DNA of 64,000 nucleotides from Escherichia coli (GTDB taxonomy: Bacteria > Pseudomonadota > Gammaproteobacteria > Enterobacterales > Enterobacteriaceae), in assembly GCF_009931435.1 (NCBI RefSeq), contig NZ_CP043414.1; one strand, given 5' to 3'. Made by a program: the position numbers and the translations under genes. Positions 61,006 to 61,228 of this stretch are shown here, in pieces. The notes below the pieces were generated by a model. That model did no database searches and was not told where the DNA came from. It saw only the letters and a list, made by a program, of their open reading frames with translations. The first letter of the stretch is position 1; every line of letters starts with the position of its first letter.

Positions 61006-61074
61006 CGGTTTTTCTGTCTATTTGGGGCAGTGGCGGTAACGTCATCCTGAAAAATGTGGCGCGGCACACTGCGA

Positions 61075-61110
61075 TAAAAAAGAGGGCCTTAAAGATATCA
61101 TGAAGGCCCC
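61075..61110 (-). terminator. intrinsic terminator downstream of the partial DUF1998 gene
   Basis: On the minus strand: stem GGGCCTT / AAGGCCC (61084-61090, 61103-61109) followed by TCTTTTTTAT (complement of 61074-61083). Confidence 0.55.
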
Positions 61111-61228
61111 CGGCAAAGTGACAAAATGGGAGGGAATGCGCATAAATTGCGCATGATTTTCAAACAAAAATTATTAAAAAGTGAGCTGGGTCAACTCCCC
61201 TGGAAGATATCCCCAGGGGAGCAATTAT

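What the first reader, a model, noticed from the sequence alone, without database searches (positions are those of the whole stretch)
61006..61228. 223-bp gap with two hairpins: likely promoter region of the four-gene operon
This is the only sizeable intergenic space in the 19-kb gene block. It holds a perfect 9-bp palindrome directly after the upstream stop (CTCCCCTGG...CCAGGGGAG, 61195-61221) and a stem/U-tract terminator (61075-61110). The operon promoter and any regulator-binding site must therefore lie in about 61006-61075.
Basis: seen in the sequence. Interest (0 to 1): 0.4.

Follow-up and report, generated by a model that had tools for sequence, protein, structure and literature searches.

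The report
Promoter gap between two phage-defence operons

Summary
The gap 61006-61228 and both hairpins exist on the minus (coding) strand. The window is an E. coli OI-172-type defence island. The upstream gene is druE (Druantia III) and the four-gene operon is armABCD (ARMADA II).

Published cloning primers show that exactly this gap plus armABCD, placed antisense to the vector's lac promoter, gives phage defence. So the gap contains a working promoter.

Comparison of 31 distinct versions of the gap changes the details:
- **Hairpin 1 (61195-61221)** is conserved, with compensatory changes in 6 of 10 pairs. It marks the 3' end of whichever operon lies upstream.
- **Hairpin 2 (61082-61111 plus six T)** is stable only in the E. 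coli lineage (-15 kcal/mol, against -1.9 or weaker elsewhere).
- **The loop of hairpin 2** carries the one motif fixed in every lineage, TGnTAnnnT (61100-61092). This is an extended -10 promoter, predicting a start near 61085.
- **61085-61006** is a conserved 5' leader with a stem-loop (GCAGTG 61072-61067 / CACTGC 61032-61027) and an A-rich stretch without a Shine-Dalgarno sequence.

No transcript data were available. This is ordinary biology of modest interest.

The parts
61229..61231 (-). Stop codon (TAA) of druE (Z5898-type Druantia III helicase-nuclease). The gene runs off the window end.
   Evidence: PADLOC DruE3 match with E = 6e-216. RefSeq annotation in ATCC 8739.
61195..61221 (-). Hairpin 1: CTCCCCTGG-N9-CCAGGGGAG. 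A conserved RNA hairpin at the 3' end of the upstream operon.
   Evidence: -14 to -27 kcal/mol in all lineages. 6 of 10 pairs changed on both sides, 92% of cells paired, 0 of 500 shuffles as good. G-U pairs occur only in the sense strand.
61175..61197 (-). Conserved block after hairpin 1: invariant GTTGAC (61195-61190), then a small hairpin GAGTTGACCCAGCTC followed by ACTTTTTAA (terminator-like). TTGACC is also a -35-like hexamer.
   Evidence: Invariant columns. Flagged as terminator-like in the window and in Siccibacter L006. Flagged as promoter-like TTGACC-16-TATCGT only in L006.
61136..61154 (.). Palindrome ATGCGCA-N5-TGCGCAT, about 60 bp upstream of the predicted start. A possible regulator site or small 5' hairpin. 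Only the second TGCG is conserved.
   Evidence: I7; alignments.
61082..61111 (-). Hairpin 2: stem 61111-61103 / 61090-61082 with a 12-nt loop. A lineage-specific intrinsic-terminator-like structure.
   Evidence: -15.1 kcal/mol in the window type and in L086; 0 to -1.9 in all other lineages. -8.5 in the plasmid/CT29 variant.
61092..61100 (-). Predicted extended -10 promoter of armABCD: TG (61100-61099), n, TATCTT (61097-61092). It lies in the loop of hairpin 2.
   Evidence: 31 distinct variants were scanned 225 nt upstream of the ATG (171 nt in L011). In 30 of them this motif, 93-106 nt upstream of the ATG, is the only TGnTAnnnT; L109 has one extra copy. Only TG, T-12, A-11 and T-7 are fixed. 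In L109 homology starts only about 8 nt upstream of it.
61076..61091 (-). Predicted start region (+1 about 61085 +/- 2) and invariant CCCTCTTTTTT. In the window lineage this also serves as the 3' arm and U-tract of hairpin 2.
   Evidence: Start position is inferred from the -10 position. CTTTTTTATCG is invariant and stays conserved in lineages that lack the hairpin.
61027..61072 (-). 5' UTR stem-loop: GCAGTG (61072-61067) pairs with CACTGC (61032-61027), with a variable interior.
   Evidence: RNAalifold. Present in the minimum-energy fold of all five lineages folded. G-C to A-U compensation in the Yersinia/Serratia type. Both arms are kept in the Aeromonadaceae locus L011, and an analogous covarying stem is found in Vibrio L015/L017.
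61006..61026 (-). A-rich leader without a Shine-Dalgarno sequence (CCCAAATAGACAGAAAAACCG) directly upstream of the armA ATG.
   Evidence: Nearly invariant across Enterobacterales.
58147..61005 (-). armA (Z5899-type SNF2/BrxHII-like helicase), the first gene of armABCD (armB 53210-58144, armC 46869-53210, armD 44758-46872).
   Evidence: papers.

Best explanation
The gap is a composite junction between two defence operons transcribed in the same direction, druHE (Druantia III) and armABCD (ARMADA II). Reading 5' to 3' on the minus strand:

1. **Hairpin 1.** This conserved RNA hairpin, with the GTTGAC / small hairpin / T5 block behind it, ends or stabilises the upstream transcript. It is attached to whichever module sits upstream: DruE, or an unrelated two-gene pair.
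2. **Upstream promoter region.** About 70 bp of moderately conserved DNA follows.
3. **The armABCD promoter.** It is a sigma-70 extended -10 promoter, TGATATCTT at 61100-61092, with no good -35, starting transcription near 61085.
4. **Hairpin 2.** In the E. coli OI-172 lineage only, substitutions in the 5' flank created a stable hairpin around this -10 box. Together with the pre-existing T6 it forms an intrinsic terminator for transcripts arriving from upstream. Transcripts that start at the arm promoter lack the 5' arm, so they are not terminated.
5. **The 5' UTR.** It runs about 80 nt: a U-rich 5' end, a conserved stem-loop (61072-61027), and an A-rich leader without a Shine-Dalgarno sequence up to the ATG.

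**Shown here or in the cited papers:** gene identities; that the gap suffices for expression; hairpin 1 covariation; the lineage restriction of hairpin 2; the conservation pattern of TGnTAnnnT and of the UTR stem.

**Inferred:** the exact start site, terminator activity of either hairpin, and the role of the UTR stem-loop.
For: - **Identity of the locus.** The gap is 100% identical to O157:H7 and other E. coli genomes and is present in 534 of 5426 complete genomes. PADLOC and Pfam identify DruE, DrmD-like, methyltransferase, YprA-like and GajB-like proteins. The operons are named druHE and armABCD in bioRxiv 10.1101/2025.09.22.677730 and PMC12458937.
- **A promoter lies in the gap.** The pARMADA insert begins at 61228 (primer FN1701) and gives defence 'under its native promoters'. 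The vector overhangs place it antisense to lacZ-alpha; that orientation rests on my knowledge of the pUC-type lacZ-alpha sequence.
- **Hairpin 1.** Three distinct stem sequences (CTCCCCTGG, CTCCCCCAC, CCCCCTGCC) all pair. The hairpin follows either DruE or an unrelated 743-aa gene.
- **Hairpin 2.** It is stable only in the window type and L086 and is weakened without compensation in plasmid/CT29 variants. In Yersinia, Serratia and an Enterobacter MAG, the blast-detectable DNA similarity to the window gap (about 71%) starts only at the hairpin-2 position and runs to armA.
- **The -10 element.** TGnTAnnnT sits at the homologous position in all 31 variants, including two Aeromonas lineages. Substitutions fall only at the positions that tolerate them.
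- **L109.** This locus keeps only the -10 and what follows, in front of an intact armA.
- **The UTR stem.**
Against: - No transcript start or end data could be found.
- The hexamer TATCTT matches consensus at only 4 of 6 positions, and there is no -35. The simple scan instead pairs TTGTCA (61124) with CATGAT (61102-61097).
- The predicted +1 is a pyrimidine.
- In Vibrio ARMADA loci the TGnTAnnnT motif is absent. A TAATAT/TACTAT box sits where E. coli has its T-tract, so promoter position is not universal.
- The invariance of the T6 tract in lineages without hairpin 2 is not explained.
- Hairpin 1 has no adjacent U-tract, so it is not a canonical terminator.
- The diversity amounts to about five independent lineages, not 31 independent samples.
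- Read-through from vector promoters into the pARMADA insert is not formally excluded.
Confidence: 0.6

Rival explanations
1. Hairpin 2 plus the T-tract is the druHE terminator, and the armABCD promoter and operators lie wholly downstream, in 61006-61075.
For: In the window lineage hairpin 2 is a good stem with U6 on the correct strand. The gap does contain a promoter.
Against: No conserved -10-like hexamer (A at position 2, T at position 6) exists in 61075-61006. The only scan hit there, TAGACA-18-CAAAAT, would start transcription inside armA. The region holds a conserved stem-loop typical of transcribed leader. Hairpin 2 is absent from most lineages that keep the same downstream sequence.
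Confidence: 0.13
2. The operon promoter is the TTGACC box right after hairpin 1 (-35 at 61194-61189, -10 AATTTT at 61172-61167, start about 61160). This would give a 155-nt leader in which hairpin 2 acts as a transcription attenuator.
For: GTTGAC is invariant in every lineage that has hairpin 1. In Siccibacter the scan finds TTGACC-16-TATCGT, matching 9 of 12.
Against: The matching -10 is poor in the window (3 of 6) and absent in the Yersinia/Serratia type. L109, L089, L096 and L100 lack this block but keep armA and the -10 at 61100. An attenuator hairpin should be conserved, and hairpin 2 is not.
Confidence: 0.15
3. The gap encodes a free-standing small RNA of about 85 nt (61160 to 61076). 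It would have a 5' hairpin, a single-stranded CCCUCCC seed and hairpin 2 as its terminator.
For: The architecture looks like an Hfq-type sRNA. There is a weak Rfam match to RF00519 (mmgR/suhB) at 61159-61069, 25.1 bits, E = 0.012.
Against: The score is below the family's gathering score of 41. The would-be seed (CCCTCCC becomes ACATTCC) and the terminator are not conserved. The published EHEC Hfq-crosslinking table of orphan Hfq-bound sRNA candidates (EcOnc01-64, Table S2) lists none at the expected position of this island (about 5.37 Mb, my estimate) or labelled with an OI-172 / SpLE6-type island. My initial guess that this was Esr41 was wrong, because Esr41 lies in OI-43/48.
Confidence: 0.07
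4. There is no promoter in the gap, and armABCD is expressed only by read-through from druHE.
For: The genes are co-directional and the two systems act synergistically.
Against: The gap plus armABCD alone is active on a plasmid. druHE deletion mutants keep ARMADA activity. ARMADA II occurs behind unrelated upstream genes.
Confidence: 0.03

Closest known systems
Extended -10 (TGn) sigma-70 promoters of E. coli
   Same: TG at -15/-14, T at -12, A at -11 and T at -7 are fixed, while the other positions drift. There is no recognisable -35.
   Different: No start site has been mapped here. The hexamer is weak (TATCTT) and sits in the loop of a terminator-like hairpin.
Rho-independent (intrinsic) terminators
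   Same: Hairpin 2 has a GC-rich 9-bp stem followed directly by U6 on the coding strand. Hairpin 1 is a GC-rich stem just after a stop codon.
   Different: Hairpin 2 has a 12-nt loop and is lineage-specific. Hairpin 1 lacks an adjacent U-tract; its nearest T5 lies 14 nt away, behind a second small hairpin.
5' UTR stem-loops that stabilise mRNA (ompA-type leaders; from general knowledge)
   Same: A conserved stem near the 5' end of the predicted transcript, with a variable interior and covarying arms.
   Different: In E. coli the stem starts about 13 nt from the predicted 5' end, not at the very end. No stability data exist.
Rfam RF00519 (mmgR/suhB sRNA of alpha-proteobacteria)
   Same: A small 5' hairpin, a CCUCCC stretch and a terminator hairpin with a U-tail.
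   Different: The score is below the gathering threshold, the taxon is different, and the elements are not conserved among relatives. The resemblance is to generic sRNA features only.

Membership tests
Sigma-70 extended -10 promoter | TG dinucleotide one base upstream of a -10 hexamer with T at -12, A at -11 and T at -7 | tested here: met
   TGATATCTT at 61100-61092. The same pattern occurs at the homologous site in 31 of 31 variants.
Sigma-70 extended -10 promoter | A primary transcript 5' end 6-8 nt downstream of the hexamer | not testable with these tools
   No TSS data found. Predicted at 61085 +/- 2.
Sigma-70 extended -10 promoter | The DNA fragment drives expression on its own | tested here: inconclusive
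   Published pARMADA carries the whole 223-bp gap and is active. No sub-fragment has been tested.
Intrinsic terminator (hairpin 2) | GC-rich stem directly followed by a U-tract on the transcribed strand | tested here: met
   9-bp stem at -15.1 kcal/mol, then T6 at 61081-61076.
Intrinsic terminator (hairpin 2) | Short loop (3-8 nt in common definitions) | tested here: not met
   The loop is 12 nt, and the scan with a loop limit of 8 does not report it.
Intrinsic terminator (hairpin 2) | The structure is maintained among relatives | tested here: not met
   Stable only in the window type and L086. Weakened to -8.5 without compensation in plasmid/CT29 variants.
Intrinsic terminator (hairpin 1) | Stable stem after a stop codon, maintained by compensatory change | tested here: met
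Intrinsic terminator (hairpin 1) | U-tract immediately 3' of the stem | tested here: not met
   The stem is followed by UUGACCCAGCUCAC. The T5 comes only after a second small hairpin, and no T-run is present in the Yersinia type.
Rfam RF00519 / Hfq-type sRNA gene | Score at or above the family's gathering threshold | tested here: not met
   25.1 bits against 41.
Rfam RF00519 / Hfq-type sRNA gene | Conserved seed and terminator; a detectable Hfq-bound transcript | tested here: not met
   Seed and hairpin are not conserved. The EcOnc table has no entry at the expected position of this island.
Dispersed repeat (REP/ERIC-type element) | Many copies per genome | tested here: not met
   Median of 1 and at most 2 places per genome.

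The most novel reading that the evidence does not exclude
The gap may be a conserved 'linker' cassette that couples ARMADA II to interchangeable partner systems. Hairpin 1 plus the GTTGAC block would be the shared junction at which upstream modules are swapped: Druantia III, or an uncharacterised 1569-aa plus 743-aa gene pair with no hit in Pfam, PADLOC or NCBIfam. The lineage-specific hairpin 2 would tune how much upstream transcription reaches armABCD. If so, that gene pair would be a new ARMADA partner defence system, and the linker a regulatory device behind the reported Druantia-ARMADA synergy. In O157-type strains it could also release an ~85-nt RNA that ends at hairpin 2.
Probability: 0.12. 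Interest if true: 0.55.

Novelty: new member of a known kind. Interest (0 to 1): 0.28.

Why it matters
ARMADA II and Druantia III were only recently shown to be active, synergistic phage-defence systems in EHEC and ATCC 8739. Their regulation has not been mapped. Placing the likely arm promoter at 61100-61092, and separating conserved from lineage-specific elements, gives concrete targets for reporter and mutational work. It also tells people who clone the system how much upstream DNA is needed. In itself, though, this is a standard terminator/promoter junction.

Tried and rejected
- **Esr41.** I recalled that an EHEC sRNA affecting motility might lie here. The literature places Esr41 in OI-43/48, so this is rejected.
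- **Other known EHEC sRNAs.** The Hfq-crosslinking table of orphan Hfq-bound sRNA candidates (EcOnc01-64) has no entry at the expected position of this island.
- **Rfam.** Nothing reaches a gathering score. The best match is RF00519 at 25 of 41 bits.
- **Small ORFs.** An 18-codon ORF exists on each strand of the gap, but the start codons are lost in relatives (read from the alignments). Rejected.
- **Sigma-54 promoter.** TGGTAC-N5-TGGC appears in Aeromonas, but the GG is not conserved in E. coli or Yersinia. Rejected.
- **LexA box.** The CTG...CAG motif in the leader has the wrong spacing (11 nt rather than 10). Rejected.
- **Start-codon occlusion.** RNAalifold predicted pairing of UUUAUC with GAUGAA. 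With 42 nt of coding context, the unpaired probability of the start region (0.33-0.61) does not differ from controls. Not supported.
- **Viral contigs.** A scan for the leader motif found nothing.
- **TSS data.** Supplements of the EHEC dRNA-seq paper are not held. The Druantia/Zorya preprint has no mapping.
- **Dispersed repeat.** Rejected on copy number.

Full report
**What the locus is.** All relevant genes lie on the minus strand. The gap 61006-61228 separates an ORF ending at TAA 61231-61229 from four tightly packed ORFs: 58147-61005, 53210-58144, 46869-53210 and 44758-46872. The DNA is 100% identical to E. coli O157:H7 and other E. coli. It occurs in 534 of 5426 complete genomes and on 17 plasmids, usually once per genome.

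The upstream ORF matches the C-terminal 40% of DruE (PADLOC E = 6e-216). Its frame stays open to the window end, so it is the 2104-aa druE gene truncated by the window. The four downstream proteins are an SNF2/DrmD-like helicase, a large methyltransferase, a YprA/DruE-like helicase and a UvrD/GajB-like helicase. Two 2025 preprints name these operons druHE (Z5897-98, Druantia III) and armABCD (Z5899-Z5902, ARMADA II) on O-island 172, and show both to be active, synergistic phage-defence systems.

**The observation.** Both hairpins are real.
- Hairpin 1 is a perfect 9-bp inverted repeat (61195-61203 / 61213-61221), extendable to 12 pairs at -21 kcal/mol.
- Hairpin 2 is a 9-bp stem (61111-61103 / 61090-61082) with a 12-nt loop, followed by T6 (61081-61076), at -15.1 kcal/mol.
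- The gap as a whole folds better than shuffles (z = -3.35).
- Perfect hairpins of 9 bp or more are about seven times more frequent in this window than in simulated sequence, so one alone proves little. The comparative data decide.

**There is a promoter in the gap.** In PMC12458937 ARMADA II was 'cloned under its native promoters' and protected against 13 phages. Primer FN1701 shows that the insert begins ATAATTGCTCCCCTGGGGATATC. That is window base 61228, the first base after the druE stop. The vector overhangs join this end to the distal side of lacZ-alpha, so the operon is antisense to the lac promoter. That orientation rests on my knowledge of the pUC-type lacZ-alpha sequence. druHE deletion strains that keep the gap also retain ARMADA-dependent defence.

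**Comparative anatomy.** A protein-anchored scan found armA loci in many species. A DNA-motif scan of metagenomes added 25 more 5' regions.

*The gap travels with armA.* It is alignable from hairpin 1 to the ATG in Siccibacter, Citrobacter, Mangrovibacter and Enterobacter (81-85% identity). In Yersinia, Serratia and an Enterobacter MAG, blast-detectable similarity (about 71%) runs from the hairpin-2 position to the ATG, although hairpin 1 and the GTTGAC block are still recognisable there in the multiple alignment. What lies upstream varies. In some loci it is DruE. In others it is an unrelated pair of genes (1569 aa and 743 aa), and this pair also occurs in E. coli strains without armA.

*Hairpin 1* is present wherever the GTTGAC block is present. 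Its stem sequence differs among lineages (CTCCCCTGG, CTCCCCCAC, CCCCCTGCC). On a register-correct alignment 6 of 10 pairs show changes on both sides, 92% of cells pair, and no shuffle of 500 reaches these values. Slid controls fall to 56-71% paired. The single-sided changes give G-U pairs in the sense strand only, which argues for an RNA hairpin in the dru-to-arm transcript. It has no adjacent U-tract. In the E. coli and Siccibacter types a second small hairpin plus ACTTTTTAA follows and is flagged as terminator-like. I read hairpin 1 as the 3'-end structure of the upstream operon, acting as a non-canonical terminator and/or as protection against exonucleases.

*Hairpin 2* is different. Its 5' arm is not conserved, and a stable structure exists only in the window type and one metagenomic variant. 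Every other variant folded (14 of the 16 distinct sequences) gives 0 to -1.9 kcal/mol. A plasmid/CT29 variant 98% identical to the window carries an uncompensated G-to-A change that halves the stability. Yet the loop, the 3' arm and the T-tract form the most conserved block of the whole gap.

*The -10 element* lies inside that block. Each of the 31 distinct variants, including two Aeromonas lineages, has a TGnTAnnnT at the homologous position, 93-106 nt upstream of the ATG. It is the only copy in the upstream stretch scanned (225 nt; 171 nt in L011) in 30 of them, and L109 has one extra. The variants are TGATATCTT, TGTTATCTT, TGATACTCT, TGATATTCT, TGATACCCT, TGGTACTCT and TGGTACCCT. The fixed positions (TG, T-12, A-11, T-7) are those that matter most for an extended -10 sigma-70 promoter, and the positions that tolerate change are the ones that vary. 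The only copy that breaks the motif (TC for TG) is the E. coli 1218KP remnant, which has lost armA to an IS. In metagenomic locus L109 the homology begins only about 8 nt upstream of this TG, in front of an intact armA.

In the window the element is TG 61100-61099 and TATCTT 61097-61092, entirely within the hairpin-2 loop. The predicted start is about 61085, inside the 3' arm.

**Consequences.** A transcript that starts there lacks the 5' arm of hairpin 2 and cannot be terminated by it. A transcript coming from druHE contains both arms plus U6. So in the E. coli lineage hairpin 2 plausibly insulates armABCD from upstream transcription while leaving its own promoter free. This is inference, and the terminator activity is untested.

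**The leader.** Downstream, GCAGTG (61072-61067) pairs with CACTGC (61032-27) in the minimum-energy fold of every lineage examined.
- There is a G-C to A-U compensation in the Yersinia type.
- Both arms are retained in an Aeromonadaceae locus whose interior is unalignable.
- Two Vibrio loci have an analogous stem, with two compensatory changes between them, right after a TAATAT/TACTAT box.
- Then comes an almost invariant A-rich leader without a Shine-Dalgarno sequence.

This looks like transcribed 5' UTR, not promoter DNA. The only promoter-like hit in that stretch would start inside armA.

**Rivals.**
- The TTGACC after hairpin 1 could be a -35. With a 16-nt spacer it meets TATCGT in Siccibacter, but AATTTT in the window and nothing usable in Yersinia. 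Several loci lack this block entirely.
- An sRNA from about 61160 to hairpin 2 would look textbook and gives a weak Rfam hit. Its seed and terminator are not conserved, and the EHEC table of orphan Hfq-bound sRNA candidates has no entry at the expected position of this island.
- Pure read-through expression is contradicted by the published constructs.

**Limits.**
- No experimental 5' or 3' ends were available.
- The promoter is weak by consensus, has no -35, and predicts a pyrimidine start.
- The Vibrio loci use a different box.
- The strict conservation of the T6 tract in lineages without hairpin 2 remains unexplained. It may serve promoter escape or translation of the leader that lacks a Shine-Dalgarno sequence, but I have no test.
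- The effective number of independent lineages is about five.

**Verdict.** The specific layout is revised: the promoter most likely lies in the hairpin-2 loop, hairpin 2 is a recent lineage-specific addition, and hairpin 1 is the conserved 3' element of the upstream operon. This is an ordinary terminator/promoter/leader junction in a recently characterised defence island, useful for people working on ARMADA and Druantia but not surprising.

Noticed in passing
L002:12237-19174 (E. coli 1218KP); also L003, L004, and upstream of armA in L007, L008, L016: A two-gene module (1569 aa then 743 aa) occupies the Druantia III slot upstream of hairpin 1 and ARMADA II in several Enterobacterales. In some E. 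coli it stands alone at the same chromosomal site. It has no hit in Pfam, PADLOC or NCBIfam and no similarity to DruH. It may be an uncharacterised defence module or ARMADA partner.
   Followed up: partly
window 44715-44742: A perfect 11-bp hairpin (AGACCAGGAGC...GCTCCTGGTCT) lies just downstream of the armD stop (44758). Like hairpin 1 it has no U-tract on the coding strand. Both operons therefore end in the same style of strong, U-less hairpin.
   Followed up: no
L015:3882-3993 and L017:3882-3993 (Vibrio / Enterovibrio ARMADA loci): The gap here is shorter but has an analogous layout: a GC-rich hairpin after the upstream gene, a TAATAT/TACTAT box, then a 5' stem-loop (GCAGCAAAA.../GCAGCTAAC...) with compensatory changes between the two species, then an A-rich leader. 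The TGnTAnnnT motif is absent.
   Followed up: partly
L115:9001-9221 (K. pneumoniae IncFIB plasmid) and L116 (E. coli CT29): The druHE-gap-armABCD block also sits on plasmids of E. coli and Klebsiella. That variant has a G-to-A change in the 5' arm of hairpin 2 (-15.1 to -8.5 kcal/mol). In CT29 druE is annotated as a truncated pseudogene.
   Followed up: partly
L109:3740-4100 (metagenome contig): Unrelated sequence is joined to the ARMADA 5' region only about 8 nt upstream of the TG of the predicted -10, with armA intact. This is a natural 'minimal promoter' junction. Divergent ORFs of 136 and 523 aa lie further upstream; an IS66-like element is my guess and was not checked.
   Followed up: partly
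window 61003-61026: armA has no Shine-Dalgarno sequence. The 21 nt before the ATG (…AGACAGAAAAACCG) are nearly invariant from E. coli to Yersinia, which suggests an unusual, constrained mode of translation initiation.
   Followed up: no
window 61159-61069 (minus strand): Weak covariance-model match to the alpha-proteobacterial sRNA family mmgR/suhB (RF00519): 25.1 bits, gathering score 41, E = 0.012. It is driven by a CCUCCC stretch plus a terminator hairpin. I judge it to be a resemblance of generic features.
   Followed up: yes
window 1-44700: The rest of the window is core E. coli chromosome (yjiR to uxuAB, gntP, the fim operon, nanC, nanM), as annotated in strain N3 (the window and N3 were not aligned directly here). 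The island abuts a truncated sialate O-acetylesterase gene, and armD sits within 6 nt of the same position as in strain N3.
   Followed up: partly
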